A stretch of 52,554 nucleotides of DNA, filler included, from Sphacelaria rigidula (lineage: Eukaryota), in NCBI GenBank assembly GCA_964200075.2. It is 3 parts of 3 records of this genome, joined end to end, with 100 filler letters (N's around TTAATTAATTAA, not from the genome) between each part and the next. Parts side by side here need not be neighbours in the genome. Positions count along the whole stretch, not along the records: positions 35,109 to 52,554 come from CAXNAA020001080.1; 2 more parts are not named here. One strand, 5' to 3'. Position numbers and translations under genes: made by a program. Under the pieces are notes generated by a model that ran no database searches, was not told where the DNA came from, and worked only from the letters and a program-made list of their open reading frames with translations. This document shows, piece by piece, positions 10,701 through 52,554 of the stretch; within the stretch, counting starts at the first letter, position 1, and each line of letters begins with the position of its first letter.

Positions 10701-13700
10701 CGAGGCTTACGGTATATTTTCGCGTCTTCACGCGCCGCGTTTCGACGAGCGGTTTCGAGGACCGGGCTTGGACAAGGTATCTTACTGTTGGCATCTATCT
10801 CGCCTTGGATGGTCATTCCAGGTGCTACCAGCGGCCTTTGTCCTCCAAGTTCGACCCCACCCGCCGCCGAAGAACGGCCGTAGAGGGTTAGACCTCCCGA
10901 CACCAGAGCTCAGCGCCGCGACCGCTGGCCTGTTTCAGCGGTTTTGTTCCGAAATCGATCGCTCCCTTGGTGCTTCAGAAGAGGAGAAGGATAAAGGGAG
11001 GGAGAGGGAGAAGGTGGACGAGCAGAGTGAGCAGCAGGAGGAGGAAAGGACATGTTCAATCCGCGGTCGCCGGCCGTCGTCACGCCCTCCTGTCCAGGAA
11101 GAGCGAAGTTACGAAGTACTCGCGGGTATGTCGCTGCTAGCGTGGGGTGACTGCTGGGCTAAACGGATGACTGACGTTAACACCACTACCGATAGCAGCA
11201 GCAGCAGCAGCAGCAAGAACAGTGTGTGCGGTAGCGGTTGGAACCTCAAGGGAAGTAAGGATTTGTGGGGAGGTATAGCCGAGGGAGAAGCTAACTGCGG
11301 GATTTTTTTCGGTGGCGACGGTTTTGGAGAAGAGAAACAAGAATCGCCACCAAAGAGAATGGTGGGTCGATGGATACGCATCCGCCTCTTCAAGCTCAAG
11401 CCGGAAGATCGCGTGTGCGGAATCCTCGGAAGATCTGTTGTCGAACCCCACGCGATTCATGGAGTCGTGCGATACTGGATACGCCCTCACTGGGGCTTGG
11501 ATACAAGTATATGTGGGAAGCTCCCCGGCTTGGGAATGTCAGGGGAAGTGCGATTCTTAGCGCGCTGGCGCGCCGGTGCCTTGGTGTACTGTGAGTTGGA
11601 GAGACTTGGTCAGCCGCTACGGGACATCTGCAAGGTAGGGATACGTACGGCAGACCCTGAGTTTTTCCTGAAAGCAAACTGAGCTTCGCGAAACTTCCAA
11701 ACGAACACATACCGAGCGCTGTCACGCGGTATACCCTCAGTCCTAGTATTTCTCGTACCACGGATTCCCTTCTTCTTCCTGGGGTAAAATATTGCGCTCC
11801 TTTAAATAGTGCTCGTAATCGTTAGGTTCACGTGGCGTTCGAGAGGCCCTTTCATCTCGAGAGAGGCCAAGCGACGTTGCTGCAGCTCGAGGCGGACTTG
11901 AACGGCAGCAACCGAGGGGGGGGTGGTCAGCTTTCGTTCCGCGCATGGGCAAATGACGAGCGAATCTATGAGGCTCGAGTTTACGCGGAAGACAACGGGT
12001 CCGCCGAGATGAGAATAGAGCACGTGGTACTGCACGTTTGTGCTGCCGCAGCAAACGACGCCGCAGCGAATAAGGGCCGTAACAAGCCACGTCCTTCTTA
12101 TATCCCCGCGGACCAGCAGCAGCAGCAGCAGTACAACTTTGTAGACATCGGAGGGATCGAGGTGTGGGGTCGGTGTATCCCAAGGAAGCCGCCGATAAAG
12201 CCACCAAAACCCGGCAATGACGTCAACAACGAATTGTCCACCGTACACAATAATAACGGTGTCCAAACGCTCACGACAAGGTGCGTGGGTGGTGCTAAGG
12301 ATGATTCGCGGGAAGACCAGATAGCACTCTGTCACCTGGTCACCGCCGCCCTCAGGGCGGAGAAGGAGAATCTACGTTTTGTGTTTGTGGCAAGGTAAGA
12401 AGGCACCTTTCCGCAGAAGCTTGTCGCCGTTGTAGCTGCTGATTGTACAACACGGGCCACCATAGTAGTTCCATTCAAGACCGCTCGGTATGCGCATGAT
12501 TAGTACATTCGGCGTGCTCTTGAATGCCCGGGGCAGGTAAAAAAATAGCATTAAACCATGACGCTACTAGAGCAGGGCGGCACGAACAAAAAACCACACC
12601 CGTGTAAACAGCTCACTGTCTCTCTCCCGCTTCGCCCCGATGAACACAATTAATCGCGCTCTTCCGAAGTAGCACAGGGCGATGCGGGACACACTACCTT
12701 TCCCAGCTCCTCAGCACAGCACCTGGAGTTCAGTCGTTTCACGAGGCTTCCCCCTCTATGTGCGGGCACGATATGCTCCTCTCCGCCGCTCGTGCCCCCG
12801 AAGCAAGATACCGAGAGCGTCGGCATAAGGTGGACGCCATTCTCCAGTCTGCGCTTCACCATCTGCAAATACGGCGGGAGCAAGGAGACGCCGGGCAAGG
12901 CCTTATATACGCGGATACGTCGCACCTCTTCCTCAAGGCTTTTTCCGACGTTGTGATGGTGGGTCATTGGAATATATATATATATATATAACTGACGTGG
13001 AAATAAGACGTTTAATGGAGTATATCGAACCTTCGACGTACGTTGACTTTTAAACTATGTGTCCACAGCCTGATTTATGGCTACCTTACGGTTTTTCTGG
13101 ACCTAAAACGCGAGCTATTTTTTTATTTGAGATTGCGTGAATACTCAAGAAGTCATACACCATTCAGTTACCATTTGAGAATTCGACGGTGACCTGCAAG
13201 TTCTGTCCATTCATCTTTATTGAAAGTCTAGCTTACCTAGTGAGTGGTGGCTAGTGTCAACCTTTTGTGTTATTATAGTCCTGGACCTTCTGTGCTGTGC
13301 GCAGACGTTGTTATTGAGGCTGTAAAATAAATTCAAGTGGGTTCACGACAAGGGTAGCATCTGGTCTCACAATTTGAAGCATGTTCACGAGTGTCTGTTT
13401 CAGGAAGCGCAACTTTGCACATATGCACAAAAAATGTGTAGAGAACAAGCGTGATTCCAGTACCATCCGGCGTAAAATACGTGGGGGTAGGGTCTGACTC
13501 ACCTCACAGTGCACCAAGGCAACATGCAAGAGTACGAGCCAATATCCATCATTCACCGGCCGGCGTGCATCAAACCCCTTGCCCTTTTTTTGCATATGTT
13601 TGCCTTTTTGTTGGTACTATCACCCCCATAGCGCGAGCTAGCGCCATTTTTTCGGATTGACGTCGTTGTGCTGCGGCGTGATCCGGCTGCGGTTTTGAAG

Positions 13701-17459: not shown

Positions 17460-17559
17460 NNNNNNNNNNNNNNNNNNNNNNNNNNNNNNNNNNNNNNNNN
17501 NNNTTAATTAATTAANNNNNNNNNNNNNNNNNNNNNNNNNNNNNNNNNNNNNNNNNNNN
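17460..17559. other. Assembly gap (100 nt, N-padded TTAATTAATTAA linker)
   Basis: N runs flank TTAATTAATTAA, which has stops in all six frames. The same construct occurs at 35009-35108. Confidence 0.95.
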
Positions 17560-31462: not shown

Positions 31463-33509
31463 ATGGTTGGGAAATGTTGCTTGTTGTCGGAAAAGTGGAG
31501 TGAGCGCATAAGTGGGGAGCCAGGCACTCTTGCCCGCTTTGTCGAGTGTTGATCGACGAGTGACCGGCTAGGGTTATCTTGCACACGCGGAGTTTCATGT
31601 ATTAGTCGAGTTGGAAGCGGTGGACGATGGCAATGCAAGTATCGGATGCTGCCAGGGTTTGTCGTCGTCTTGCACTAAACAGTAGTTGAATCTGTTGTGT
31701 CGATAGTGACCGTACGCTAGCGAACTACAATATGGTGCAGTCTCTGGAATATGACGCCAGGGTTGAACAGCTCTATGTAAAGCTTTCCCATTGTTTCGAT
31801 GTGCAGGCAATCCGTGCTAGGGCTTTGAAGAAGCAAGCTCCGACGTCCATCGCGCGACGATTGCATCGTCATATTGTTTGTCTTGGCTATCACCAACACT
31901 CTCACACGCGTCCTGCACTTCTTTCAGCATTCGCACCAATCACAAGGTTTTTCCTACATCATCAAACATTTTTCTTCTGACGTTAAGGCGGATACTGGTG
32001 AGACTCATGAGTGGTGCGGGAAGTTTCGTGTGCCTTGACCCTTGTGGAACTCGCGAAAAACAGCACAAATTCCCGTGTGCGAGCTTTCGTCGACGGGAAG
32101 AAGCCACTCCGCGTTCCGTGCACGAACCTGTCACTGGTATACTTGAACTTGAAGTGATGCACCGTTTTGTTGGGCTGCATTATCGACACTTGCAGAAGAA
32201 CAATCATATCTTGCCCACACGAAAACGTCAAGTGTAAATCGTCACGTTTCCATGGACGATCCCAAAAGGGGTGAAGGCCATACGTGTACGCGTATCCATA
32301 CCGTAATAAGTGAGTGAGGTATGGGGAATCAACGGTTCGGGTTCTCAGCCATCATCGCAGTTCCTAGGCAGCATGTTTACATGCTGCATACAATATATAG
32401 TTAATTATAAATATTCACCAGTTTACAGCGACGACTGCGGTGTCCAGGAACAACGGTTATGGATGAGAGTCTGAACCGTCGACTCCACATACGTCGGGTT
32501 CACTCGCGATGCCACGTGCTACTTCTCTTCACTCTATGTATATGTATTTCAACTTCAGGACCTGCAGCGCGCGGCAGTAACCTCGGTCGCGCTGTAAGCT
32601 TCCAACCCCGTTGCATGAGGTGGACTTGAAATCTAGGGTTCATACCGATGGAAAACGCTCAACAACTACTGTACTTTCTTCCCGGCACTACGGTAGTGGG
32701 CGGTCTAACTATTTAGCGGGGTTTTGGGATATTCCTTGCGTACTTCTCTTCAAAAGAACTCGAAATTGCTAGCGTCGGTAGATTTTGGTACAAAAAACAA
32801 ATCATCCTCGAAACACAGTGCCCAAGTCAGTGCTCGTCGATGTTATCGGGCGAAACGAGGATATACCCCGTTCATCAGGAGGGTGTTATTGACCGTGAAA
32901 GACAGTTTTTCGGCTCTAGTGCATTGAGTAGGCAAAATCTCAAAAAAATAAAACTCTACATTTTTCAAGCTCGATCGACCGAAAATACCGAGGCTCACAA
33001 ATTCTTTAGATCCCCAATGTGACAAGTGGTGGCAAGCGAAAAGAGCCCAAGAAAGCCGCCAAATACGAAGAAATCACAAAATGCCTCAAAACGAATAGGT
33101 AGACCGCCCACTACTGTACACCCGTGAAATGCTACTGCAGAGGCAGTTCCACGGTCGTCAGGCCGATGTGTCGCTGACCCGTGCAGTTCCCGCCTGTGTT
33201 GAAAGATAGATAATGTGTTCCCCCTGAACGTTCGGTGCAGACGCCGACTCCGTGGGCCAGTCTTGTACTTGATGTATGTATGTACCCGATCCGGAGTATT
33301 GAAGTCAGGTAATCAGAAGTCAACCGGATATCGAGTCTACTTCGACCAGGTAGTGGAAGAGGAGCTGTCTTTTGTCAAAGTTGGATCCGCGTCCGCGAAC
33401 GCCAAATGAGGATTTCAGGACCTCAATGGGCTTGCCCGGACCTTGTCCCGTTGATTCAATTTTTGACTTTATTTGTACGAACAACTTGCGGACTAAAGTT
33501 ACCCCTGAA

Positions 33510-33938
33510 CACGGGATTTTACAAATTGGGGATGGATCTTTGACTGGGGATGAAAACCCGGAGAAAAAAAACATTCGTATCCACACCGAATCTTCGAAGT
33601 ATGCTTCCATTTCTTCACTTGCTGGTAGGTTTGATAACTACTACACGCCATTCAAATTTGGATTCCGATATCCGAAATGGCGGCGGGGTCCCACGTGAAG
33701 AATCAATGTGGGGGGATTTTAGGTGCCCGATCGGACGCCGAAATTGGTTCTTCACCTAAGACCCCGACATTTCCTTTGTCGACATTCAAATTTGTACGGC
33801 GTGTAGTAGTTGTCAATAGCTACCAGCAAGTCAAGAAATGGAAGTATACTTTAAAGATTTGGTGTGGATACGAAGATTTCAATTCTCCGGGTTTTCATCC
33901 CCAATAAAAGATCCATCCTCAATTTGTAAAATCCCGTG
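33510..33938. mobile_element. Foldback MITE (~430 bp, ~185-bp TIRs), copy 1
   Basis: Left arm CACGGGATTTTACAAATTG...GTGAAGAA is the imperfect reverse complement of right arm TTCTTCAC...CAATTTGTAAAATCCCGTG. A second copy lies at 35380. Confidence 0.85.
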
Positions 33939-35008
33939 TTCCTTGTTTCGACTGTTTCAGTACACTCAAGATGTACATGATTATATGTCGAGAAGTTGAA
34001 GCATGATGTGCGTGACGTAAAAAACTTTACATGAAGTTGTGTTCGGAGGGTGGCGCTTGACTCTTCCGGAAACAGGTGAATATCATCCACAGTGGTGATG
34101 GCTATGTTTGGGCTTATCCCAAACCAATTCTTTTATCCAACGCTGTACCCCTGTAAGTATCCCAGATGTCCATACTCCCTCTCTCCAGAAATATGTGCAA
34201 GGTTTCTACCATAAGCTCCGAAGTAGGTAATTTAGTCGTTGCTTGATGTCGGACGGGTATAAAATACGATCGGATATGACATGGTTGGACGAAAGGAATA
34301 AATCTGTAGGGAGGGAGGGGATGAGAGTTTCGTGTCCCCTGATTGGGATATCCGGGAGTGTAATTAGCGAGGAGGTACCGAATCATTGTACCCTTTTCCA
34401 ATTCGTTGGCATTCTTGCGCTTTGGCCCCTGGGAGGCACTCCCAGCAGTGAACATGCCTTATCCTCTGATTCAGAAGATGGGAAGGCTTTTCACCGGAGG
34501 TTCCAAGTTAAAGGTGACTTCGAGCTACTGTACTGCTGCTGGGGAGGAAGAACCATTTTTGGCGTGAAAATGAAAAAAAACACCGGTTTGGGGCAAACCG
34601 CGCGAGAGCCGCCGAACCGAAGAAAAAAAACGATCGTGGAAAAAAAGGACGCCGCGATTGGACCTCTTTTTCTCCCAACCTTGCTTGTAGTTCCGGATAG
34701 AGGTAGCATATATCTCGTCAAAGTTTTGATGTGATGATACATCTCACGTGTGTTTGGAGGCATATTGAGGTCGGCCCGCAGATGGTCGAAATATGTCGAA
34801 TGGCACCCCTCGTTCCGATGAAAATATTTCGGAAGGGCATGCCTCGTTTTCTACCCCGGAAGAAGGGTCGGGGGGCGAGGGGCGGGCTGAGAATGAGCAC
34901 GTCGAAGTTATGCCTTCCATCCGTCCAGCAGCATCTAACAGCCGATTTTCGACAATGGGGTTGAAAAATAAAATGAGGTTCAACTCAAAAGCCGTGCTTT
35001 CCCTGACC

Positions 35009-35108
35009 NNNNNNNNNNNNNNNNNNNNNNNNNNNNNNNNNNNNNNNNNNNNTTAATTAATTAANNNNNNNNNNNNNNNNNNNNNNNNNNNNNNNNNNNN
35101 NNNNNNNN
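35009..35108. other. Assembly gap with TTAATTAATTAA linker
   Basis: Same N-padded linker as 17460-17559. Confidence 0.95.
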
Positions 35109-35379
35109 TTAAGTGTCATTGCGCCAACTCTAGCGATCACGTCAAAGGGGTCATCGCGACACTTTTCCAACACAGCCGCGGCACGATACACTACAGACTG
35201 CACAGCAAATATATGAGGCTTAATAATCAGGTGGTCGACAAACACACCACCGTCTGTGTTATGACTCTCACAACTATGTGTCTCTTATGCACTCCCGGTC
35301 CCTTCCGCCGTAGAGTAGGCGTTTTGAGTTGTGACAGAGGAATGATGCTGAACCCAAAACAACGTGGAGAGTGTCTAAG

Positions 35380-35815
35380 CACGGGATCTTACAAATTGGG
35401 GACGGATCATCTATTGAGGATGAGAAACCCGGAGAATGAAAATCTTCGTACCCACACCAAATCTTCGAAATATGGTTCCATTTCTTCACCTACTGATAAC
35501 CATTGACAACTGCTACACGCTATAGAAATTTGGATTTCGATCACCGAGATGTTGGGGTCCTAGGTGGAAAACCATTTTTCGGGAATTCCGGGTGTCCGAA
35601 CGGACGCCAAAATGGCTCCGATGTTTTTCACCTAGGACCCCAACATCTCGGTAATCGAAATCCAAATTCCTACGGCGTGTAGCAGTAATCAATAGCTATC
35701 AGTAGGTGAAGAAATGGAACCATATTTCGAAGAATTGGTGTGGATACGAAGATTTTAATTCTCCGGGTTTCTCATCTCCAATAAATGATCCATCCCCTAT
35801 GTGTAAGATCCCGTG
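35380..35815. mobile_element. Foldback MITE (~435 bp, ~190-bp TIRs), copy 2
   Basis: CACGGGATCTTACA...TGTAAGATCCCGTG, colinear with 33510-33938 including the central loop (GGTG.CCGA.CGGACGCC.AAAT). Confidence 0.85.
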
Positions 35816-36614
35816 TTTCGACCTCAGTCTACCAGCGGGGGGGTCGTCGTCTAAGGGCTAATTACGATAATTTAGTTGCGTCTTTCTCTGTCGAATCCTG
35901 TTTCGGCCTATTTCGTCTTTTATTTTCCCTTTTTGCAGCCTTGTTGTTAATGGGCTCGTTTTTTGGTACCGTCAACCTTTGGCCCTTGTCGCGGTCATCT
36001 TGTCTTGCCCTGCCCTGGTTCCCAGTATGCCGAACCTTATACAAACAGAATGGTATTGTGCATAGTTGTTGTTGACATTCTGTGTCTCTACTATATGTTA
36101 GCCGAGTACTAGAGCGAAGCAACAACAGCCTTTCGGTCATGCAAGTTACGATGTCTCGCTAGCTCATGAAAATACGACTTACTTTTACTAAATGCTAACA
36201 CATTTCACCATCTTTCGATGCACATCGTTCATCTCTGACTACTATGTCGACCTCCTTACATCTGCTCACTGCTTGAATCAAACATCTTTACAGTCTCATC
36301 GTTGTTCCTGAAACAATCGTGAGCTCACAGCACGTGGGAGAAGTCCACACAGAACGATACACAACGAACGTCAGGACATTCTTGATCACAGCTTCAGGCC
36401 GATTCGATTTCTATTTTCCTCTTGGTGGTGTTGACTCATCATACTTCAGAGAAGTGAACACCAGGGTGACAGCTGGTTGAATCCATCCCTGGAAAAAACC
36501 GGATCCAACCAAATGTAAAGAGGCATGTTTATGTATTCCATCTCTTGACGGATTACGTCATCCTCAACCCTGATTGCGGTACTTGTAATGCATGAGAGGA
36601 CCACGTGCCTAGAG

Positions 36615-36858
36615 GATGGCGCCGTAGTTCAAAACACCGCAGGATCGATGTTTTTCAAAACCAATCGGGCCAGTCCTTGCAGGTACCACGCCCCTGACCC
36701 TAACCCCAACACTAACCCTAACCCTGACCCTAACCATGGGGATGTTCAAATTCCGATGCGGTCCTCTAAGCACGCGGTCCTCTCACGCATTACAGTACTA
36801 ACCAGTTCTCGCAATCAGCCCTCCGGGCGAGTGGTGTCGTTTTGAAATCCACGGCCCA
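36615..36858. repeat. Interstitial (CCCTAA)-like tract within a short element with imperfect inverted ends
   Basis: CCCTGA CCCTAA CCCCAA CACTAA CCCTAA CCCTGA CCCTAA at 36692-36733. The flanks GCCGTAGTTCAAAACACC and GGTGTCGTTTTGAAATCCACGGC are imperfect inverted repeats. Confidence 0.6.
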
Positions 36859-41419: not shown

Positions 41420-43000
41420 AATTATCGATCATACGATTTGTGCACAAATTGTGATCGTACATGTTTTGGGCTCATGATTCGTGCGACACTACATGGCACG
41501 TACATATTACCACGTGTCGTTCATGCGTCGAAGGTACATTTTTCCCATCTGTGATTGGTCTGGCTTGATCCATGGGCACACTGTCTTACACATCGAACAG
41601 ATCGTCTCCATGCAGCTCGAGCAAGATTTTTTTAGCGTAGCTCCCTGCTGACTTACGAGAGGGACAAGAGCTGTGCCTGTTTGGTCAGGGTGAGCTACCG
41701 GACGTCGCACCCTCGCTCATCTTTACCCTGGGTGACCTATCGCACGTACAGTAGCTCATCCGTACATATATTCCCGGGGTGAGCTACAGAACGTGAGAGA
41801 GCTAAGCATGACTTGGTAGGTATGAGCGCCACGCGAGAGGGGCTGTTTCTGTTCTAATGCTCACGCACGTCGTTGCATGAGAACGATCACATAGCTGCGC
41901 TCTGTGTTCTGCGTCGGTGGATGATTTCCAACATTCGTGGCCCACGTGAAATATAGGTGGAACTACGAAACAATGTACTCCGGTCAGCAGTTGCGGGGTC
42001 ACCATAACCCACCATTTCCTTTGGATCGCCAGTCTGCAGACCACTGTACTGCTGTGTGCAGAAAGCACAGGCAGTACAGGCAGGAGTACTGTATTGTCTG
42101 TACGTTGATCAAAATATTTATTAGTACGGCCGCTGTACTAAGGTGCTGCGCGCAAACTCGCATCGACGTAATCCTCCTGTGTGCAGACCGTGCAGCACCG
42201 CACAGTGTGCGCCGCACGTCGAACGGTACATTGCTGCACACATCACGCGGGACTGCCAGTCGAAGGACTGTACCAAAGCGAGGCCCGGGACCCAAAGGGC
42301 TGACGCGATTGCACACGTGGGACAGATCAGCTCCCTGTAGCTCGAGCTAGCACTTTTTGAGCGTAGCTCCCTACTGAGCTATGAGCACTAAATGAATTAC
42401 GCGTGTTTGCCCTCAGTGAGCTAGCGGACGTAGCTCATCCGCGCATGTTCGCCGCGGGTGAGCTATCGGTCGTAGGTCATTAGCACATGTTTGACCACAG
42501 GTGAGCTACATACAGCGGATGAGCTAGCTCATGAGCGTTCAATGTTCGAATGTTTCCTACCTGTCATTCATGCGGCATAAATCATTAGTACATGTTTCCC
42601 ACCTTCCGCTCATGCGGCATGAACCAAGCGTACATGTTTCGTACCTGTGATTCGTGCAGCATAAAATCAAGGGTTCATGTTTCCCACCCATCATCCACAA
42701 CATGAATCGAATGCATAAATCCCCGCCCACCATTCCATGCGGCAGGGCCATTTTGGACAAAGTTCGCAGACGTCCTGCATGAGGCGCGAGTCTTCGTTGA
42801 ATTTTTCGCGGTCGTCACTCAGTAGACCCGAGTAGCTCGTGTACTTCTCGAAGCCGTCATTCATGAGGCGCAACTTTCCGGTACATATCCCGGACCCGTC
42901 ATTGCTGAGACGCGTCTCTTTAGCCCATTCTGCGTACCCGCAATTTGTGTGGCACAAATCTCGCACAGTGTGACGAGCCTCGCCTAACAAGCTTTTCGCC
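41420..43000. repeat. Degenerate ~40-42-bp repeat complex with an internal ~210-bp direct repeat
   Basis: (CA)TGTTTC recurs at about 42549, 42591, 42633 and 42676. TAGCTC/GAGCTA-rich blocks 41597-41810 and 42322-42534 are diverged direct copies (ACAGATC..CTCC.TG.AGCTCGAGC...AGCGTAGCTCCCT.CTGA). Confidence 0.65.
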
Positions 43001-43100: not shown

Positions 43101-45730
43101 TATATATTGCCTGTAATAATGCCATGTGCGTACAGCTACATGTCGATATATTGCTGTTGTTGAAATACCTCCACCCCGTGTACACGTACAGTTACTTGTT
43201 GAGTAAATCTCAAACCTCTTGTCAAGAGAATGAAACGCACGATTCAATACAAGTGTATACATATTATATATATATATATATACATTGCCTTCGGGAGGTC
43301 GACTACTCCACTCCTCGGCATGATGAACGCCCATGTTGTGCAAAAGTTCGAGATACTAGGGGCATTCAGTGGCCGAGGCAACCACTCGATGTTCTTCAAA
43401 TTTTATCTGCGTGGCCCCTTGGGACGCCAGTTGGGTCATCCGGGTCTTGCAATCATTCTTCGAGTGAAAAATAATGCCGGTTCATGTTGAGCTTGAAATG
43501 TTGATGTTGAAGTCGACAAAAAAAATGGGAATGAAATATGGGAGCAGAGGTGATACGGCAGCGCATTCAAAGCACCCCCCCGCCTTCCAGCATCACCCGT
43601 CCATCATCGCAACAAAACGCGACAGCATGAACACTGGGCAGTACAGCTACTGGTATCGCCGCCGCAGTATCAACAGCTCCACCCCATCAAGCATCTTCCG
43701 ACGACTTATCTCCGGGGATAAGAGACAGATATGACAGCGATGACGAAGATGACGAAGGTGATCCGGGTCATGAGAACAAGGCAGTGGTAAATACAGCATC
43801 TGTTTTTCTTGTTTATGCTGTGTCATTCGTCGTACCGTTTACTGCGAGTAGTGTCTGGTGAGGAATGACGGCATTCGATACTCTCTCATTGGTGCAGTGT
43901 GATTTCCTTATTTTTGTTGCTGCTGATGCTGCGTTATCGTTTTGTTGTTTGCTGTGAGGGGGGAATGGGTGAAAAAAACATGCAGCTCTCACTTTGGTAC
44001 TGTTGTGTACATGACAAGGCCAAAGAATATACAGAGTAGGTAGTTGCAATATATATATATATATATTCCGCCGATAGTCGTATGGTTTGAATGCAGCACG
44101 TGAAGCAACATTGAAGCGCGGTTTCGGGGCTTCTGCACGTTATGAAGTGCCCTTTGCGCGCACCAATCACCAGTTCAAAGATCCAAACACTCGAATGATT
44201 CACGTTTCCGTTTATTTTACTTTTAGCCGTGTAGAACTGTAGGGAATTCCCAGGACCTTTACGATTTGTTCTTCAAGTTATATGAGCAAACCAGTGCCCG
44301 AAAACCGCATAACCGTCTTGTTCAGCGCATCCTTGCAAACTAAACGCTGCGAAACGATATATGTAATTTTTGTCTTCACTACTGAAAAACCGCCCGCTGT
44401 TGCGATCCGTTGACATTCAATCTCGCATTCCACGCTTCGCTTTCAATATCTCGAAGCAACGGTAGCTCGGGATGGGATGTGGTGGACCCCGTCCCCCTCT
44501 CGATCATTTTCTAATGTGCTCCAACGGGTTGTCGGGGCAGTTTGCCTCAGGACCCATCACCCGAAATGCTCCAAACCGGCAAAATCGGCCGAAGAGCGAG
44601 GGCGGGAGCTACGCAAGGCACTGTTTATTATATTTCTGTTATACCAGGTCATTATGCAGAGAGAACAATGCGTGGATGCTGCCTGTGCTGAAAAAAATCT
44701 ACATTTGACTTTTGTAAAGCCCTCTGGGAAACATGCTTGGACGGAAAATAGCATGTGCATCTATTGCTAGCATTGATGCCCGCTGACGGTGGACGGGCGC
44801 TGAACAGTTCACAGCACTTCTCGCTATCCATGCAGTGCGACGCCTTTTGCTTCTCATCGGGGTTATTGCAGTCTCGGTCGTACAAGACATCTGCGTCATC
44901 TTTGATGGATCGGTTCCTGCTCTTGGGGGGGGGGGGGGGGGGGGGGGTGGGGCCAAATGCGTTTTGGAGGGGGGGTCCGGCTCGCCCATGGGGCGCCCCT
45001 GCGCTTCCTGGGNNNNNNNNNNTGTTTCGCTGTTTGCCGCTCCCCGCGCACAACCTGTCGTGGTTTGTTGTTTGGGTGCGCGCTGCGGGGGGGGGGGGGG
45101 GGGGGGGGGGGGGGGCGCTTGTGCCCATCTCGTTCTGGAAGGGGTGTTCGTCTCTCCCATGGCGCGCTCCATCGCTTCCTGAGCGGACTATGATGGAGAA
45201 GGCGTCGGCAGCGGGAACCAGCAGGACCCAATGGTTCTCCTGGGTCCCGCTGCCGACGCCTCCCTTATCTCCATTAACCCAGGAAGCGATAGGCGCCCGT
45301 GTTTGAAGGTGCTCACGTCAAAATGAGGAAGGCGTTTCCCAAGCATGCTGAGCTGCGCGCTTGCCGAGGTGAGGGAACGGTGGAGTTTGTTCGAAGCGCC
45401 GAGAACATTGTGCACGCTGAATTGGCGGATGAAAACCCGAAAACGGTAGAGGGAGACCAATCTGCATTGTGGCACCATCGGGTATTCACGACCGTAACTT
45501 TTTTTTTTGTGTTTGCAGCTTTTACCGATGAGTAGACTGTAACGGACGGCGTGACGATCAATCGCACCAAAATGGGTTAAAGGTTCATTTCTGGTGTAAG
45601 AGAGTGCAGCAAGTGTAAGTGATGTAGACCACCGCCATGGAGGGCCAAATAGGGACACAAATGAATACATTGCTGCAGTCAACACCACGCAAATGTGCGC
45701 ATGCACATTCAAACGCCCACAGTATATCAT

Positions 45731-46279
45731 ATCACTGCAAACACGGACCCCACCGCCACGGTGCTCATCTCGGAGCTCGAAGACTCACTCAGGTGCTGAA
45801 CCACCTTGTTCACCGCGTCGATGCACTGTCGGGTTTTAGCGCTTCTGGGGATGCCCTCTAAGCATTAGTTCCAAACGCTCGACAACAAAGTGAACGGTCG
45901 CGGCAAACATTCAAACATACCGCACCTCGTTTGGAGCACGCGCACATGTAAATGGTGACGACCGCAGCAGTGCATTCATTCATGCCACTATTGAAAAAAG
46001 ATATGCAAAACTAAATACACTGCTTCGGTCGACACCATGCATACGTGCGCATGCTCCAAACGAGTTGCGGTATTTTTTTCATGTTCGCCACGACCGTTCG
46101 CTTCGTTGCCGGGCGTTTAGAACTCACGGTTAAAAATATCATAACCCTTCAAGGGCATCCTCCCGAAGCGTTAAGACCGGACACGCCATCGATGCAGTAT
46201 AAACGGTGGCCGAACATCTGAACACGTCTTTCAACTCCGAGATGGGCACTGTGGCGGTCGTGTTCATGTTTGCAGTGAT
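45731..46279. mobile_element. Foldback element / long inverted repeat (~240-bp arms)
   Basis: ATCACTGCAAAC pairs with GTTTGCAGTGAT, ATCTCGGAG with CTCCGAGAT, CTCGTTTGGAGCA with TGCTCCAAACGAG, and GCAGTG with CACTGC around a ~45-nt loop. Arm differences are mostly transitions. Confidence 0.8.
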
Positions 46280-47583
46280 ACAATGCACGCGTTGAAGACG
46301 CATTGAGAGTGTGATTTTTCGTAGCCGTTAGTCTTCAACGAATTTCTTACAAGTGATGCAACACGTCTCTTACAATGATAGAGCTGCTGCTCTACTGCTG
46401 TATCTTCCGTTGATATGTGACTATTTCAGGAGTTTTGAACTCGGCACAATATTTTATTGTTTCGTTGAAATTAATATTTTGACCACACGAATTGCTGGCA
46501 ATTATTGTGCGTCGTCATGCTTTGCACGTTGAACATTATCTTTATTAGGTCCGTTACAACAGTCGTGATCTACCAGGTTTGCTGTTGCCACGGTCGAGTG
46601 TCGGTGTTTGAACGAGCCGGGGCTGACAGCGATCAAATACTCCGGCCAGAAATGCGGCGCATGACGAAAGTAAAATAACCTCCTCACGATTACCCCGCTC
46701 AAATTACAAAAAGGTGAAGTTCGAAGACGTCCAAACGACACTCTGCGGTAACACCGACAACCAATCAAAAAAGTTTCGTAAAACGCTTCTTTGTCACATC
46801 AGGGTGCAAATATCTCAGGATAAGAGCGTAGAATAAAGAAAAACATCGCATCCAAAAGAGTTAACCCTTTTGGAACCCTCCTCTCCTGTCCCCGGGCCAA
46901 ACGCCTCATTGTGAAAAGCCCCGACAAAGATGAAAAGATGGAAGCAGAAAAAGCCGACAGCAACCATTTTATAATGGAAGACCGAAGAAGAATCCAGTCG
47001 CACGCCCGGCGGGTGCAGGAAAAATGTCCTCCCTGGAGAGGTCGGATGAGATTTGTCCAAACATACCACGCAACGGATTAAGTGTTTCCGATTGTATCCA
47101 TCGACAAAAATCAGCAAAAAACACCATGAAATATTCCACTCAAGAAACAGCAATGGATTCCAGGACCTGATACGGCACATTGGTGACTACGAAGCCTTTT
47201 TTGTTCGACTTGTCACTCGCACGGATATGAAAAATACGCATTTGGTGAATGCTGTTCCGTCTGACCTGTAAACCACGAGCCACATCATGCTCAATAACCG
47301 TCAATTGCAAAGGATCAATCTTCCATTATGAGTTCCAAAAGGGTTCAGGGGATACCACATTTGACGGAGGGAAGAATAGTTTCGTTACACTCTGATCCTC
47401 AGATTTTTGCACCCTGACATAACAAAAAAGCGTTTTCCGAAACTCTCCAGTGCCGTGCCTCATCGGTGGATATCCACGTGTAACGTACTCCATCCGTGGT
47501 TTCGGGTAGGTTCGCGCTTGAGCACCTCCACACCAAGAATGAGCCAGTGGCATTCCCCCTGTCCGCCTCATGGGCCAGCATGG

Positions 47584-50475
47584 AGGAACTGTACTCCCTC
47601 ATCATGTCTAGCGCGATCTTGATGAAACCAACTCAGAAGACCAGGGTGCCGACGGGAGCAGCGACGCTCCACAACCTGATGGCTACTGGGGTGTCTCTAC
47701 CGAAGAAAGGCTGGTCCCTTCAATAGAGACACCCTGATAGCCATCAGGTCGTGCAGCGTCGCTGCCCCCGTCGGCACCTTGCTCCTCTGAGTGTCTTTGA
47801 TCGAGATCGCAACAGCCTTGACCACAGAATACTGTTCCTCCACTGTAGGGAATGTACTCCCTCACCATGTCTGGTGCCATCTTGATCAAAGACATGCCCG
47901 ACGATGAAGATGCCGACTGGGGCAGCGACGCTCCTCGGCCTAATGGCAACCGGGGTGTCTCTACCGAAGAAAGGCTGGATCCTTCGATAGAAATACCCTG
48001 ATCGCCATCAGGTCATGAACCGTCGCTGCCCCCGCCGGCACCTTGCTCGTAAGAGTGTCTTTGATCAACATCGCAACAGCCTTCATCATAGAGTAAGGTT
48101 CCTCAACAGTAGGAACTGTACTCCCTCATCATGTTTGGTGCAACCTTGATGAATAAGTCAGAAGACCAAGGTGCCGATGGGAGCAGCGACGCTCCACGGC
48201 CTGAGGGCTACCGGGGTGTGAACCAAAAAAAGGCTGGTTCGTTTCATAGAGACACCCTGATAGCCATCAGGTCGTGCAGCGTCGCTGCTCCCGTTGGCAC
48301 CTTGCTCCTCTGAGTGTCTTTGATCAAGATCGCAACAGCCTTGATCACAGAAAATGGTTCTTCAACTGTAGGAACTGTACTCCCTCATCATGTCTGGTGC
48401 AATCTTGATCCAACAAACTCAGAAGACCAACATGCCGACTGGGGCAGCGACGCTCCACGACCTGATGGCAACCGGGGTGTCTCTACCAAAGAAAGGCTGA
48501 ATCCTTTCATAGAGACACCCTGATAGCCATCAGGTCGTGGAGCGTCGCTGCCCCCGTCGGCACCTTGCTCCTCCGAGTGTCTTTGACCAAGATCGCAACA
48601 GCCTTGATCACAGAGTATGGTTCCCTACCTGTAGGAACTGTACTCCCTCATCATGTCTGGTGCCATCTTGATCAAACAAACTCAGAAGACCAAGGTGCCG
48701 ATAGCAGCAGCGACGCTCCACGGCCTGATGGCTACCGGGGTGTCTCTACCAAAGGAAGGCTGGTTCCTTCAATGGAGACACCCTGATAGACATCACGTCG
48801 TGGAGCGTCGCTGCCCCCGTCGGCACCTTGCTCCTCTGCGTGTCTTTGATCGAGACCGCAACAGCCTTGATAACAGAGTATGGTTCCTCATCTATAGGAA
48901 CTGTACATCCCTATCATGTCTGGTGCCATCTTGATCGAACAAACTCAGAGACCAGGGTGCCGATGGGAGCAGCGACGCTCCACGACCTGATGGCTACCGG
49001 GGTATCTCCACCAAAGGAAGGCTGGTTCCTTCAATAGAGACACCCTGATAACCATCACGTCGTGCAGCGTCGCTGCCCCCGTCGGCCCCTTGCTCGTAAG
49101 AGTGTCTTTGATCAAGATCGCAACAGCCTTTATCACAGAACACTGTGCCTTCACTGTAGGAACTGTACCCCGTCATCATGTCTGGTGCCATCTTGATAAA
49201 AGGAACTCAGAAGACCGAGGTGCTGATAAGAGCAGCGACGCTACACGACCTGATGGCTACCGGGGTATCTCTACCAAAGAAAGGCTGGATCCTTCAATAG
49301 AGACACCCTGATAGACATCAGGTCGTGGAGCGTCGCTACTCCCGTCGGCACCTTGCTCCTCTGAGTGTCTTTGACCAAGATCGCAACAGCCTTGATCACA
49401 GAGTATGGTTCCCTACCTGTAGGAACTGTACTCCCTCATCATGTCTGGTGCCATCTTGATCAAACAAACTCAGAAGACCAGGGTGCCGATGGGAGCAGCG
49501 ACGCTCCACGACCTGATGGCTACCGGGGTATCTCTACCAAAGAAAGGCTGGTTCCTTCAATAGACACCCTGATAGCCATCACGTCGTGAAGCGTCGCTGA
49601 CACAGTCGGCACCTTGCTTCTCCGAGTGTCTTTGACCAAGATCGCAACAGCCTTGATCACAGTGTATGGTTCCCTACCTGTAGGAACTGTACTCCCTCAT
49701 CATGTCTGGTGCCATCTTGACAAAACAAACTCAGAAGACCAGGGTGCCGATGGCAGCAGCGACGCTTCACGACCTGATGGCTACCGGGGTGTCTCTACCA
49801 GAGGAAGGCTGGTTCCTTCAATGGAGACACCCTGATAGTCATCACGTCGTGCAGCGTCGCTACTCCCGTCGGCACCTTGCTCCTCTGAGTGTCTTTGATC
49901 AAGATCGCAACAGCCTTGATCACAGAGTATGGTTCCTCATCTACAGGAACTGTACATCCTTATCATGTCTAGCGCGATCTTGATAAAAGAAACTCAGAGA
50001 CCAGGGTGCCGATGGGAGCAGCGACGCTCCACGACCTGATGGCTACCGGGGTGTCTCTACCAGAGGAAGGCTGGTTTCTTCAATAGAGACACCCTGATAG
50101 CCATCACGTCGTGCAGCGTCGCTGCCACAGTCGGCACCTTGCTCCTCTGAATGTCTTTGACCAAGATCGCAACAGCCTTGATCACAGAGTATTCTCCCTC
50201 AAATGTACGAACTGTACTCCCTCGTCATGTCTAGCGCGATCTTCAAAAAGCAAACTCAGAAGACCAAGATGCCGACGGGAGCAGCGACGCTCCACGACCT
50301 GATGGCTACCGGGGTGTCTCTACCAAACGAAGGCTGGTTTCTTCAATAGAGACACCCCGATAGCCATCAAGTCGTGCAGCGTCGCTGCCACAATCGGCAC
50401 CTAGCTCTTCTGAGTGTCTTTGATCAAGATCGCAACAGCCTTGATCACGGAGTATGGTTCCTCAACTGTAGGAAC
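47584..50475. repeat. Tandem array 1: 11 copies of a ~263-bp palindromic unit
   Basis: The unit start AGGAACTGTAC (or a variant) occurs at 47584, ~47848, 48111, 48370, 48633, 48896, 49158, 49421, 49682, 49945, 50207 and 50470. Confidence 0.97.
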
Positions 50476-50755
50476 GTTTTTTTTCTCCCCGCCCACAGAG
50501 AACAGAAAGGAACCTTAGACCATGCTCTTCGCTATTACTAGTTTCGTGCAGCGCTTCGAGTCGCTCCACCCGTCAGACATGCCCGTCAAATGTATGGATA
50601 GGCACCAAGGTGGAAGTGTCCCCCCATCCAGGGACTGTCGGACTTAGAAAAAAAAAAAACGCTGTTCCTCACGGACCAAACCTTTTACGATGTCTCCTAT
50701 CTCGACTCTGTACACGACACACCCTCCCCATCCGGGCGACGGTCCTCAGAACTGT
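50476..50755. repeat. Inter-array spacer (~280 bp), repeated at 52341-52554
   Basis: CCCGCCCACAGAGAACAGAAAGGAACCTTAGACCATGC...CCTCACGGACCAAACCT is nearly identical at both positions. Confidence 0.95.
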
Positions 50756-52340
50756 AAGAACTGTACTCCCTCATCATGTATGGTGCCATCTTGATCAAAG
50801 CCACGCCGGATGATGAAGATGCCGACTGGGGCAGCGCGCTCCACGACCTGATGGCTACCGGGATGTCTCCACCAAAAGAAGGCCAGTTCCTTTCATGGAG
50901 ACACCCTGATAGCCATCAGGTCGTGCAGCGTCGCTGCCCTCGTCGGCACCTTGCTCGTAAGAGTGTCTTTGATCGAGATCGCAACAGCCTTGATCACAGA
51001 GTATGATTTCTCAACCTGTAGGAACTGTACTCCTTCATCATGTCTGGTGCCATCTTGATGAAAAAAACTCAGAAGACCAAGGTGCCGATGGGAGCAGCGA
51101 CGCTCCACGACCTGATGGCTACCGGGGTATCTCCACCAAAGGAGGGTTGGTTTCTTCAATAGAGACACCCTGATAGCCATCACGTCGTGCAGCGTCGCTG
51201 CCCCCCTCTGCACCTTGCTCCTCTGAGTGTCTTTGATCAAGATCGCAACAGCCTTGATCACAGAACACTGTGCCTTCACTGTAGGAACTGTACCCCCTCA
51301 TCATGTCTGGTGCCATCTTGATCAAACAAACTCAGAAGACCAACATGCCGACTGGGGCAGCGACGCTCCACGACCTGATGGCAACCGGGGTGTCTCTACC
51401 GAAGGAAGGCTGGTTCCCTCGATAGAGACACCCTGATAGACATCACGTCGTGGAGCGTCGCTGCCCCCGTCGGCACCTTGCTCCTCTGAGTGTCTTTGAC
51501 CAAGATCGCAACAGCCTTTATCACAGAACACTGTGCCTCAACTGTAGGAACTGTACCCCCTCATCATGTCTGGTGCCATCTTGATCAAACAAACTCAGAA
51601 GACCAAGGTGCCGATGGCAGCAGCGACACTCCACGACCTGATGGCTACCGGGGTGTCTCCACCAAAGGAAGGCTGGTTCCTTCAATGGAGACACCCTGAT
51701 AGACATCACGTCGTGGAGCGTCGCTGCCCCCGTCGGCACCTTTGTCCTCTGAGTGTCTTTGACCAAGATCGCAACAGCCTTGATCACAGAACACTGTGCC
51801 TCAACTATAGGAACTGTACCCCGTCATCATGTCTGGTGCCATCTTGATCAAACAAACTCAGAAGACCAAGGTGCCGATGGGAGCAGCGACGCTCCACGAC
51901 CTGATGGCTACCGGGGTATCTCCACCAAAGGAAGGCTGGCTCCTTCAATAGAGACACCCTGATAGCCATCACGTCGTGGAGCGTCGCTGCCCCCGTCGGC
52001 ACCTTGCTCGTAAGAGTGTCTTTGATGAAGATCGCAACAGCCTTGATCACAGAACACTGTGCCTCAACTGTAGGAACTGTACCCCGTCATCAGGTCTGGT
52101 GCCATCTTGATAAAACAAACTCAGAAGACCGAGGTGCTGATAAGAGCAGCGACGCTCCACGACCTGATGGCTACCGGGGTGTCTCCACCAAAGAAAGGCT
52201 GGTTCCTTCAATAGAAACACCCCGATAGCCATCAAGTCGTGTAGCGTCGCTGCCACAATCGGCACCTTGCTCCTCCAAGTGTCTTTGATCAAGATCGCAA
52301 CAGCCTTGATCACGGAGTATGGTTCCTCAACTGTAGGAAC
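50756..52340. repeat. Tandem array 2: 6 copies of the ~263-bp palindromic unit
   Basis: Unit starts at 50756, 51020, 51283, 51546, 51809, 52072 and 52335. Confidence 0.97.
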
Positions 52341-52554
52341 GTTTCGTTTTTTCCCGCCCACAGAGAACAGAAAGGAACCTTAGACCATGCCCTTCGCTAT
52401 TACTTGTTTCGTGCCGCGCTTCGAGTCGCTCCACCCGTCAGACATGCCCGTCAAATGTATGGATAGGCACCAAGGTGGGAGTGTCCCCCCATCCAGGGAC
52501 TGTCGGACTTGGAAAAAAAAAAAAAAACGCTTTCCCTCACGGACCAAACCTCCT
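52341..52554. repeat. Second copy of the spacer (runs off the window)
   Basis: Colinear with 50476-50685. Confidence 0.93.

What the first reader, a model, noticed from the sequence alone, without database searches (positions are those of the whole stretch)
47584..52340. Tandem array whose 263-nt unit is a gap-free closed rod (viroid-like / hairpin-RNA geometry)
Seen: folding my by-eye consensus unit about its centre (GGAAGGC|TGGTTCC) pairs it end to end without a gap, as 128 positions per arm plus a 7-nt loop (CAACTGT), totalling 263. About 104 of 128 positions are Watson-Crick. The core 84-bp stem (ATCTTGATCAAA...GTGTCTCTA / TAGAGACAC...TTTGATCAAGAT) has only ~9 non-WC pairs. A second symmetry axis lies at the unit junction (GAGTATGGTTCCT-loop-AGGAACTGTACTC). 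The array is therefore alternating-orientation ~131-bp half-units, and a monomer circle would be an unbranched rod. Established: viroid-like rods are ~250-400 nt, the 275-nt carnation retroviroid-like element has tandem DNA copies, and brown-algal miRNA precursors are long foldbacks. Inference, three alternatives: (a) a polycistronic miRNA/hpRNA cluster, (b) an integrated multimer of a rod-shaped circular RNA/ssDNA or a rolling-hairpin product, (c) a satellite derived from a foldback transposon. G:U bias does not identify a strand (~4 on +, ~7 on -).
Basis: partly seen in the sequence, partly recalled or inferred. Interest (0 to 1): 0.8.

Follow-up and report, generated by a model that had tools for sequence, protein, structure and literature searches.

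The report
Palindromic-unit tandem repeat, brown alga
A brown-alga contig ends in a tandem DNA repeat whose 263-bp unit is an old, decaying palindrome, and it looks like a local satellite built from a foldback-type sequence, not a viroid-like or structurally conserved RNA.

Summary
Window 47584-52340 carries 17 units of 263 bp (TRF). The consensus unit pairs end to end without a gap: 103 Watson-Crick plus 4 G:U of 128 positions. It folds as an unbranched rod, -173 kcal/mol on + and -195.5 on -.

The rod is inherited, not maintained. Arms of the same unit pair no better than arms taken from different units (93.5 vs 93.6 WC pairs). Paired cells are 90.0% against 90.2% in shuffles, and only 1 pair shows a double change against 3.7 expected.

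The array evolves as DNA. A retroposon-like insertion with a 12-bp target-site duplication splits it. Block 2 plus that insertion is a copy of units 2-7 of block 1.

No ribozyme or Rfam family was found, and there is no coding potential. No relatives turned up in the collections searched. Unrelated dispersed foldback elements of 435-551 bp lie in the same window.

Best reading: a low-copy local satellite from a foldback or inverted-duplication founder. The viroid-like reading is rejected. A hairpin-siRNA cluster remains untested. Interest is modest.

The parts
47584..50475 (.). Array block 1: 11 units (u01-u11) of 259-264 bp. It starts abruptly at the first base of a left arm.
   Evidence: TRF, anchors, alignment A1. 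No degenerate unit in the 584 bp upstream.
48633..48895 (.). Example unit u05: left arm 48633-48760, right arm 48761-48888, 7-nt junction loop 48889-48895.
   Evidence: Folds as a single rod as RNA on the - strand (-170.9, z -16.0) and as DNA on the + strand (-79.2, z -12.1).
50464..50475 (.). Left copy of a 12-bp target-site duplication (AACTGTAGGAAC), made of unit-junction sequence.
   Evidence: Read. It matches 50750-50761 at 11 of 12 positions.
50476..50749 (-). Retroposon-like insertion that splits the array. A T-run at its left end would be an A-tail on the - strand. It contains modules of a very high-copy dispersed repeat at 50527-50626 and 50687-50746.
   Evidence: Sequence. Summed contig depth in the modules is mostly 1e4-4.5e5, against 60-4200 over the unit. 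Diverse loose ends occur at 50496/50520 and 50748. No similarity to the unit. Not unusually structured (z +0.71).
50750..50761 (.). Right copy of the target-site duplication (AACTGTAAGAAC). It overlaps the start of u12.
   Evidence: Read.
50756..52340 (.). Array block 2: 6 units (u12-u17), a diverged copy of u02-u07. Unit u17 is a chimera of u07 (left half) and u11 (right half).
   Evidence: In-register identity is 90.0%, against 85.1-88.4% in the other five registers. u17 vs u07 is 95% in the left half; u17 vs u11 is 94-95% in the right half.
52341..52554 (-). Second copy of the insertion (93% identical), cut off by the end of the window.
   Evidence: BLAST of the spacer against the window.

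Best explanation
This is an old, low-copy, locus-restricted tandem DNA repeat (a small satellite) in a brown-alga genome. Its 263-bp monomer began as an inverted duplication of a ~128-bp segment, either a foldback-type element or the product of fold-back repair.

Inferred order of events:
1. A near-perfect palindrome arose.
2. Its two arms diverged by about 20%.
3. The whole dimer was amplified head to tail. This automatically creates the second symmetry axis at each junction.
4. Units diverged to about 87% identity.
5. A non-LTR retroposon inserted at a unit junction.
6. A multi-unit block including that insertion was duplicated by unequal exchange.

The rod geometry is therefore a legacy of the founder that is decaying unit by unit. 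It is not a structure held by selection. If the array happens to be transcribed, each unit would form a ~128-bp imperfect duplex that Dicer could cut, but nothing here shows that it is.

Shown: the array, the palindrome, the lack of compensation, the block duplication and the insertion.

Inferred: the order of events and the nature of the founder.
For: 1. All 17 units share the same arm-to-arm differences. The consensus has 21 mismatches and 4 G:U of 128, so the arms had diverged before amplification.

2. There is no compensation. Within-unit WC pairs average 93.5, chimeras of arms from different units average 93.6 (sd 3.8), and arms across a junction average 93.2.

3. On 107 pairs x 17 units, 90.0% of cells are paired against 90.2% in shuffles (457 of 500 shuffles as high). 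One pair has a double change against 3.7 expected. 43 pairs depart only by unpaired cells.

4. When a WC pair changes: 166 cells go to a mismatch and 40 to G:U after a single change; 5 go to a mismatch and only 2 stay WC after a double change.

5. Dynamics are at the DNA level. Block 2 matches u02-u07 in register (90.0% vs 85.1-88.4%), u17 is a u07/u11 chimera, and the insertion was copied along (93% identical).

6. The insertion carries a terminal T-run, a 12-bp target-site duplication made of junction sequence and very high-copy repeat modules.

7. Other full-length foldbacks lie in the same window. P1 (33507-33941) and P2 (35373-35822) are 78% identical copies of one dispersed family with different flanks. 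P3 (45730-46280) folds at -316 kcal/mol, z = -23.4.

8. There is no coding potential: the longest stop-free frame is 134 aa and stops occur in every frame of each unit.

9. No Rfam family reaches its gathering score on the 17.4-kb contig.

10. Rough copy number: summed contig depth over the unit, divided by the depth of an exact single-locus contig, gives about 30-70 in X1 and in X2. The tool warns that such depths are not copy numbers.
Against: 1. Consensus WC-paired columns vary less among units (6.5% non-consensus) than mismatch columns (10.5%) or G:U columns (18.4%); Mann-Whitney p = 0.013. This could be weak purifying selection on pairing, or simply site-rate heterogeneity.

2. The arms show no indel despite ~20% substitution divergence.

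3. All 17 units fold more stably as the - strand (mean -166.0 vs -141.9 kcal/mol). Transitions that leave G:U on the - strand are over-represented by cells at paired columns (92 vs 43). By independent events the excess is not significant (39 vs 26, p = 0.14), and it is absent at unpaired columns. The unrelated foldbacks P1-P3 show strand asymmetries of 10-31 kcal/mol in either direction, so this is not distinctive.

4. No solitary monomer or TSD-flanked copy was seen, so a mobile-element founder is unproven.

5. Lack of covariation does not exclude a long hairpin that is diced, because such hairpins tolerate mismatches.
Confidence: 0.7

Rival explanations
1. Tandem hairpin-RNA (hpRNA / endo-siRNA or miRNA-like) cluster. 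The array would be transcribed, most likely as - strand-sense RNA. Each unit would fold into a ~128-bp imperfect duplex and be diced into 21-nt small RNAs, as in the Drosophila hp-CG4068 tandem hpRNA cluster.
For: Every unit is a very stable hairpin: mean MFE -142 (+) and -166 (-) kcal/mol, against about -78 for shuffles of u05. The - strand is the better rod in 17 of 17 units. Paired columns are somewhat more conserved.

[quoted passage not shown] Brown-alga miRNA foldbacks are long, 170-183 nt on average (PMC4513859, PMC5381526, passages). Ectocarpus AGO loads 21-nt sRNAs, and many putative miRNAs there come from inverted-repeat regions (PMC12867755, passages).
Against: There is no compensatory change at all. 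No homology of the arms to any protein was found: 0 hits for the 134-aa frame and only one spurious repeat match for the 106-aa frame. No 15-mer or longer is shared with the other 47.6 kb of the window.

Rfam gives only generic sub-threshold miRNA-hairpin hits, 18-53 bits against gathering scores of 40-100. [quoted passage not shown] The strand asymmetry is matched by unrelated foldbacks nearby.
Confidence: 0.18
2. Integrated multimer of a rod-shaped circular RNA (viroid-like or retroviroid-like), or a rolling-hairpin replication product of a small ssDNA replicon.
Against: No self-cleaving ribozyme or other viroid-related Rfam family scored E<=1 on either strand. There is no covariation. Units are only 87% identical on average (78-94%), with shared fixed arm differences, so the sequence has long resided and diverged as DNA.

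The array grew by block duplication that includes a retroposon. One conserved 28-nt motif had no match in viral contigs, and that motif and a second had none in metagenome contigs. A 128-bp half-unit is too small to be a replicon.
Confidence: 0.02
3. Structural DNA element. The dyad-symmetric monomers would be kept because cruciforms or hairpins in DNA serve chromatin, replication or chromosome-end functions, as proposed for dyad-symmetric satellites of Tribolium.
For: The unit folds strongly as single-stranded DNA (-79.2 kcal/mol, z = -12.1). The array sits at a contig end. Intramonomeric dyad symmetries are discussed as possibly functional in Tribolium (PMC13081366, passages).
Against: The copy number looks low (rough). 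Brown-alga centromeres are reported to lack satellite DNA (10.64898/2025.12.07.692804 and PMC11541908, passages). The Ectocarpus subtelomeric satellite is a ~98-bp unit with TTAGGG motifs (PMC11541908, passage), and I saw no TTAGGG or its complement when reading the consensus unit. Pairing decays freely within units.
Confidence: 0.05

Closest known systems
Satellite DNAs with intramonomeric dyad symmetry: Tribolium madens TmSat2 (704-bp unit with ~300-bp inverted segments), T. brevicornis major satellite (1061-bp unit with ~470-bp inverted segments), Trichogramma brassicae (385-bp unit with 80-bp inverted repeats). Source: PMC13081366, passages.
   Same: A head-to-tail array of non-coding monomers, each made of two inversely oriented, diverged subunits. 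A whole-monomer hairpin is predicted. Evolution is by higher-order or segmental duplication.
   Different: Those satellites are megabase-scale, putatively (peri)centromeric and found in beetles or wasps. This one is a few kilobases, apparently tens of copies, in a brown alga. Its palindrome covers the whole unit, leaving only 6-7-nt loops.
Drosophila hp-CG4068 tandem hpRNA cluster (PMC10317233, passages)
   Same: About 10-20 tandem copies of a long hairpin unit, with copy number changing quickly by local duplication.
   Different: hp-CG4068 is shown to be transcribed as one precursor, to give Dicer-2-dependent siRNAs and to have a target gene (mus308). None of these is shown here, and no target homology was found.
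MITE- or foldback-element-derived tandem arrays. MITEs are abundant in Ectocarpus, for example the 217-bp TcMar-N1_Ec32 (PMC12477816, passages). That MITE-derived satellites exist in other taxa is recalled, not read here.
   Same: The unit has the geometry of a non-autonomous element that is nearly all terminal inverted repeat. Dispersed foldback elements of the same geometry but unrelated sequence lie in the same window.
   Different: No solitary or TSD-flanked monomer was found, no recognisable superfamily termini, and no related autonomous element.
Brown-alga miRNA precursors (PMC4513859, PMC5381526, passages)
   Same: A long, unbranched foldback. Genomic hairpins are proposed there as the source of new miRNA loci.
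   Different: The mean foldback is 170-183 nt, against 263 here. The loci are rarely clustered or multi-copy. Membership is defined by miRNA/miRNA* reads, which could not be examined here.
Viroid-like / retroviroid-like RNAs (carnation small viroid-like RNA; recalled, not read)
   Same: The size class and the rod-like predicted fold.
   Different: No ribozyme, no structural covariation, and a long history as diverging genomic DNA.

Membership tests
Satellite / tandem-repeat DNA with dyad-symmetric monomer | Head-to-tail tandem arrangement of a non-coding monomer | tested here: met
   TRF period 263, 18 copies. 17 aligned units. No frame longer than 134 aa.
Satellite / tandem-repeat DNA with dyad-symmetric monomer | Monomer built of two inversely oriented, related subunits | tested here: met
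   103 WC + 4 G:U of 128 in the consensus, with no gaps.
Satellite / tandem-repeat DNA with dyad-symmetric monomer | Array evolution by unequal exchange or higher-order duplication | tested here: met
   Block 2 is a copy of u02-u07 (90.0% in register). u17 is a chimera. The insertion was co-duplicated.
Satellite / tandem-repeat DNA with dyad-symmetric monomer | High copy number and long arrays | tested here: inconclusive
   17 units are in the window. A rough depth ratio suggests about 30-70 units (the tool warns this is not a copy number). The array runs off the contig end.
hpRNA / endo-siRNA cluster | Long inverted repeat able to form an extended duplex | tested here: met
hpRNA / endo-siRNA cluster | Transcription, and Dicer-type 21-nt small RNAs from the arms | not testable with these tools
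   No run on record as RNA holds the stretch. The one guessed RNA run is kept only as contigs.
hpRNA / endo-siRNA cluster | Arm homology to a target gene | tested here: inconclusive
   No protein relatives for two frames. No shared 15-mer in the window. The rest of the genome is not available.
Brown-alga miRNA locus | miRNA/miRNA* pair with 2-nt offset, supported by reads | not testable with these tools
   No small-RNA reads are accessible.
Viroid-like / retroviroid-like element | Self-cleaving ribozyme or conserved viroid motifs | tested here: not met
   The Rfam E-value scan of both strands gave 18 sub-threshold hits: 16 miRNA-family hairpins, one bacterial sRNA and one lncRNA. None is a ribozyme. 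There were 0 hits at gathering score.
Viroid-like / retroviroid-like element | Rod structure maintained by compensatory change | tested here: not met
Viroid-like / retroviroid-like element | Circular RNA form | not testable with these tools
   Needs RNase R treatment with divergent RT-PCR, or a northern blot.
MITE / foldback transposon-derived satellite | Terminal inverted repeats | tested here: met
   The whole unit is an inverted repeat. This is trivially met.
MITE / foldback transposon-derived satellite | Solitary dispersed copies with target-site duplications | tested here: inconclusive
   None in the other 47.6 kb of the window. The genome is not available. Only the best-supported loose ends were shown, and all of them lie in the spacer.

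The most novel reading that the evidence does not exclude
The array is a tandem hairpin-RNA cluster, transcribed as - strand-sense RNA and diced into 21-nt small RNAs. It would be a brown-alga counterpart of the Drosophila hp-CG4068 cluster, born from a foldback element. It would be a multi-copy clustered small-RNA locus in a lineage whose published miRNA loci rarely cluster or form families.
Probability: 0.15. Interest if true: 0.6.

Novelty: new member of a known kind. Interest (0 to 1): 0.3.

Why it matters
Satellites whose whole monomer is one long dyad are called 'not so common' in the passages I read (PMC13081366). My full-text searches listed no paper describing one in brown algae.

The locus has value as a natural experiment. 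Seventeen diverged copies of one 128-bp hairpin show directly that pairing is not being preserved. The palindrome also starts with zero strand skew by construction, so its present skew records strand-asymmetric substitution since it formed.

The window also suggests that long foldbacks may be frequent in this genome: three of 435-551 bp in 47.6 kb. That bears on the proposal that brown-alga miRNAs arise from genomic hairpins (PMC4513859). If small RNAs do map here, it would be a rare clustered hairpin locus in this lineage. Otherwise it is an ordinary, if geometrically neat, tandem repeat.

Tried and rejected
- **Whole genome:** none is held for this window, so genome-wide copy number and solitary copies could not be examined.
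- **Earlier findings:** none on this genome or sequence. One unrelated red-alga minisatellite note turned up.
- **Sequencing runs:** 5 rows from 2 studies hold part of the stretch (shares 0.22-0.58). The best holder may be the source sample. No RNA holder is listed.
- **Laid contigs:** run X8, only guessed to be RNA, has no cover on the unit bins but does cover the spacer's high-copy modules. Contigs cannot show small RNAs, so this says nothing about expression.
- **DNA motif scans:** two conserved unit motifs in metagenome contigs and one in viral contigs gave 0 matches each. These collections are not expected to hold brown-alga genomes.
- **Protein-space searches of unit frames:** 0 hits for the 134-aa frame. 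There was one hit for the 106-aa frame, a 2491-aa repetitive ORF at 29% identity over about 50 aa, which I judge spurious.
- **Neighbourhood:** Pfam on 16 ORFs of the array's own contig gave no family. In one search, 6 of the 8 ORFs scanned lie on this contig.
- **Promoter/terminator scan:** it uses bacterial consensus patterns and is not meaningful in a eukaryote. Its 'terminator' at each block end is the junction hairpin followed by the retroposon's T-run.
- **Degenerate units:** none in the upstream flank or in the spacer.
- **Spacer as a structured or unit-related element:** rejected.
- **Strand asymmetry as evidence of a transcribed strand:** not significant by independent events, and not distinctive.
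- **Transposon superfamily:** I could not assign one from the unit termini, so I make no claim.
Full report
**What is there**

Tandem Repeats Finder reports one array at 47584-52340: period 263, 18.0 copies, 82% matches. A 13-nt anchor recurs 17 times at 259-264-bp spacing.

There is one break. At 50476-50755 an unrelated ~280-bp segment separates 11 units (u01-u11) from 6 units (u12-u17). The same segment follows u17 at 52341-52551 with 93% identity, and the window ends inside it. The 17 units align in 270 columns with 90% mean column identity. Pairwise identity averages 86.9% (range 78-94%).

**The palindrome**

The consensus left arm and the reverse complement of the right arm align globally without a gap. 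Of 128 positions, 103 are Watson-Crick, 4 are G:U and 21 are mismatches. A 7-nt loop sits at the unit junction and about 6 unpaired bases at the centre.

- The consensus folds as one unbranched rod: -173.1 kcal/mol (+), -168.0 (+, circular), -195.5 (-).
- Unit u05 on the - strand gives -170.9, z = -16.0, with 0 of 200 shuffles as good. As DNA it gives -79.2, z = -12.1.
- The linear fold has a single hairpin loop in 10 of 17 units on + and in 16 of 17 on -.

The second axis at the junction is real. It is an automatic consequence of repeating a full-length palindrome head to tail.

**Is the structure maintained?**

No, on three tests.

1. Arms of the same unit form 93.5 WC pairs on average. Left and right arms taken from different units form 93.6 (sd 3.8, range 81-102). 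Arms facing each other across a junction form 93.2.
2. On 107 consensus pairs x 17 units, 90.0% of cells pair against 90.2% in 500 shuffles (457 of 500 as high). One pair has a change on both sides against 3.7 expected, and 43 pairs depart only by unpaired cells.
3. Where a consensus WC pair has changed, a single change gave 166 mismatched cells and 40 G:U cells. A double change gave 5 mismatched cells and only 2 WC cells.

The 25 non-WC positions of the consensus are shared by the units. So the arms had already diverged about 20% before the dimer was amplified, and each unit has since lost about 10 more pairs.

**Hints in the other direction**

- Consensus-paired columns vary less (6.5% non-consensus) than mismatch columns (10.5%) or G:U columns (18.4%), p = 0.013. 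Site-rate heterogeneity would give the same pattern.
- The arms have no indel.
- All 17 units are more stable as the - strand (mean -166.0 vs -141.9).
- At paired columns, transitions that leave G:U on the - strand outnumber their complements by cells (92 vs 43). By independent events the difference is 39 vs 26 (p = 0.14), and it is absent among singletons (21 vs 17) and at unpaired columns.
- Three unrelated foldbacks in the window show strand asymmetries of 10-31 kcal/mol in either direction.

I treat these as weak.

**History as DNA**

The interrupting segment looks like a non-LTR retroposon inserted in the - orientation.

- A T-run abuts its left end.
- It is flanked by a 12-bp duplication of unit-junction sequence at 50464-50475 and 50750-50761, matching at 11 of 12.
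- Contigs of three DNA-type runs pile onto two of its modules (50527-50626, 50687-50746) at summed depths mostly of 1e4-4.5e5, against 60-4200 over the unit. Diverse loose ends mark its borders.

Block 2 matches u02-u07 in register at 90.0%, against 85.1-88.4% in the other five registers. Unit u17 is 95% like u07 in its left half and 94-95% like u11 in its right half. So a multi-unit block with the retroposon was duplicated by unequal exchange. This is ordinary satellite dynamics, and it is hard to reconcile with a recently integrated RNA multimer.

**What it is not**

- Every reading frame is closed within each unit; the longest open frame is 134 aa.
- An Rfam E-value scan of both strands gives only 18 sub-threshold matches. 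Sixteen are miRNA-family hairpins (18-53 bits against gathering scores of 40-100), one is a bacterial sRNA and one a lncRNA. None is a ribozyme.
- Nothing reaches a gathering score on the 17.4-kb contig.
- Two unit-derived frames have no credible protein relatives.
- Conserved unit motifs are absent from metagenome and viral contig collections.
- No 15-mer or longer is shared between the array and the other 47.6 kb.
- No degenerate unit lies in the flank or spacer.

**Surroundings**

The window is a pseudo-scaffold. Linkers of N44-TTAATTAATTAA-N44 at 17460-17559 and 35009-35108 join three contigs. The array therefore ends a 17.4-kb contig (35109-52554) on which 16 ORFs gave no Pfam family. The RPN2 and GT49 genes lie on the other contigs.

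The RPN2 fragment places the organism in the brown algae: 78% identity to Choristocarpus, and 88-99% to unnamed assemblies.

The rest of the window holds other full-length palindromes.

- P1 (33507-33941) and P2 (35373-35822) are 78% identical copies of one family with unrelated flanks.
- P3 (45730-46280), 1.3 kb upstream of the array, folds at -316 kcal/mol, z = -23.4.
- None resembles the 263-bp unit.

Foldback elements of this geometry therefore look common here, which makes a foldback founder plausible.

**Spread and abundance**

Five runs from two studies hold part of the stretch. Many variant unit contigs map at 80% likeness or more in X1, X2 and X4.

I divided the summed unit depth by the depth of an exact single-locus contig (12.8 in X1, 63 in X2). 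This gives roughly 30 on average and about 67 at the peak in both runs. The tool warns that such depths are not copy numbers, so I take only that the family is low-copy.

**Comparison with what is known**

- *Dyad-symmetric satellites.* Intramonomeric dyad symmetry is described for Tribolium and Trichogramma satellites and called 'not so common' (PMC13081366, passages).
- *Brown-alga satellites.* Brown-alga centromeres are reported to lack satellites (10.64898/2025.12.07.692804 and PMC11541908, passages). The Ectocarpus subtelomeric satellite is a different ~98-bp unit with telomere motifs (PMC11541908, passage).
- *Tandem hairpin clusters.* The functional precedent for tandem hairpins is Drosophila hp-CG4068 (PMC10317233, passages).
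- *Brown-alga small RNAs.* Brown-alga miRNA foldbacks are long but rarely clustered (PMC4513859, PMC5381526, passages). Ectocarpus MITEs and LINE-dependent non-autonomous elements number in the thousands (PMC12477816, passages). AGO-bound sRNAs are 21 nt, with many putative miRNAs from inverted repeats (PMC12867755, passages). For all papers I read only search listings and found passages; supplements were not seen.

**Verdict**

The best explanation is a low-copy local satellite descended from a foldback or inverted-duplication founder, with the rod as decaying heritage (0.7). An hpRNA cluster remains possible but untested (0.18). A structural DNA role is unlikely (0.05) and the viroid-like reading is rejected (0.02). 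It is a new member of a known kind, of modest interest.

Noticed in passing
window 17460-17559 and 35009-35108: Two N44-TTAATTAATTAA-N44 linkers. The window is three contigs joined artificially, so genes on the first two contigs are not shown to be neighbours of the array.
   Followed up: partly
window 33507-33941 and 35373-35822: Two 78%-identical copies of a ~440-bp element that is one full-length palindrome (RNA MFE -271 to -341 kcal/mol). Their flanks are unrelated, which indicates a dispersed foldback (MITE-like) family. No clear target-site duplication was seen.
   Followed up: partly
window 45730-46280: A solitary 551-bp imperfect palindrome 1.3 kb upstream of the array. It folds as a near-unbranched rod (-316 kcal/mol, z = -23.4). 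It is unrelated in sequence to the array unit and to the P1/P2 family.
   Followed up: partly
window 50476-50749 and 52341-52554: A retroposon-like insertion in the - orientation, with an A-tail and a 12-bp target-site duplication. It contains modules of a dispersed repeat at very high summed depth in three DNA-type runs. The same modules are present in contigs of a run guessed to be RNA.
   Followed up: partly
window 36692-36735: An interstitial telomere-like repeat, (CCCTAA)x7.3.
   Followed up: no
window 44901-45290: Long G homopolymers (up to 29 G), a 10-N gap at 45013-45022, and a 58-nt-arm palindrome at 45171-45290 with a 4-nt spacer.
   Followed up: no
window 42416-42688: Two adjacent 42-bp tandem repeats of 2.2 and 3.3 copies, at 73-80% matches.
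   Followed up: no
window 7566-11682: Three consecutive + strand ORFs with Glyco_transf_49 matches. They may be exons of one gene or tandem paralogues.
   Followed up: no
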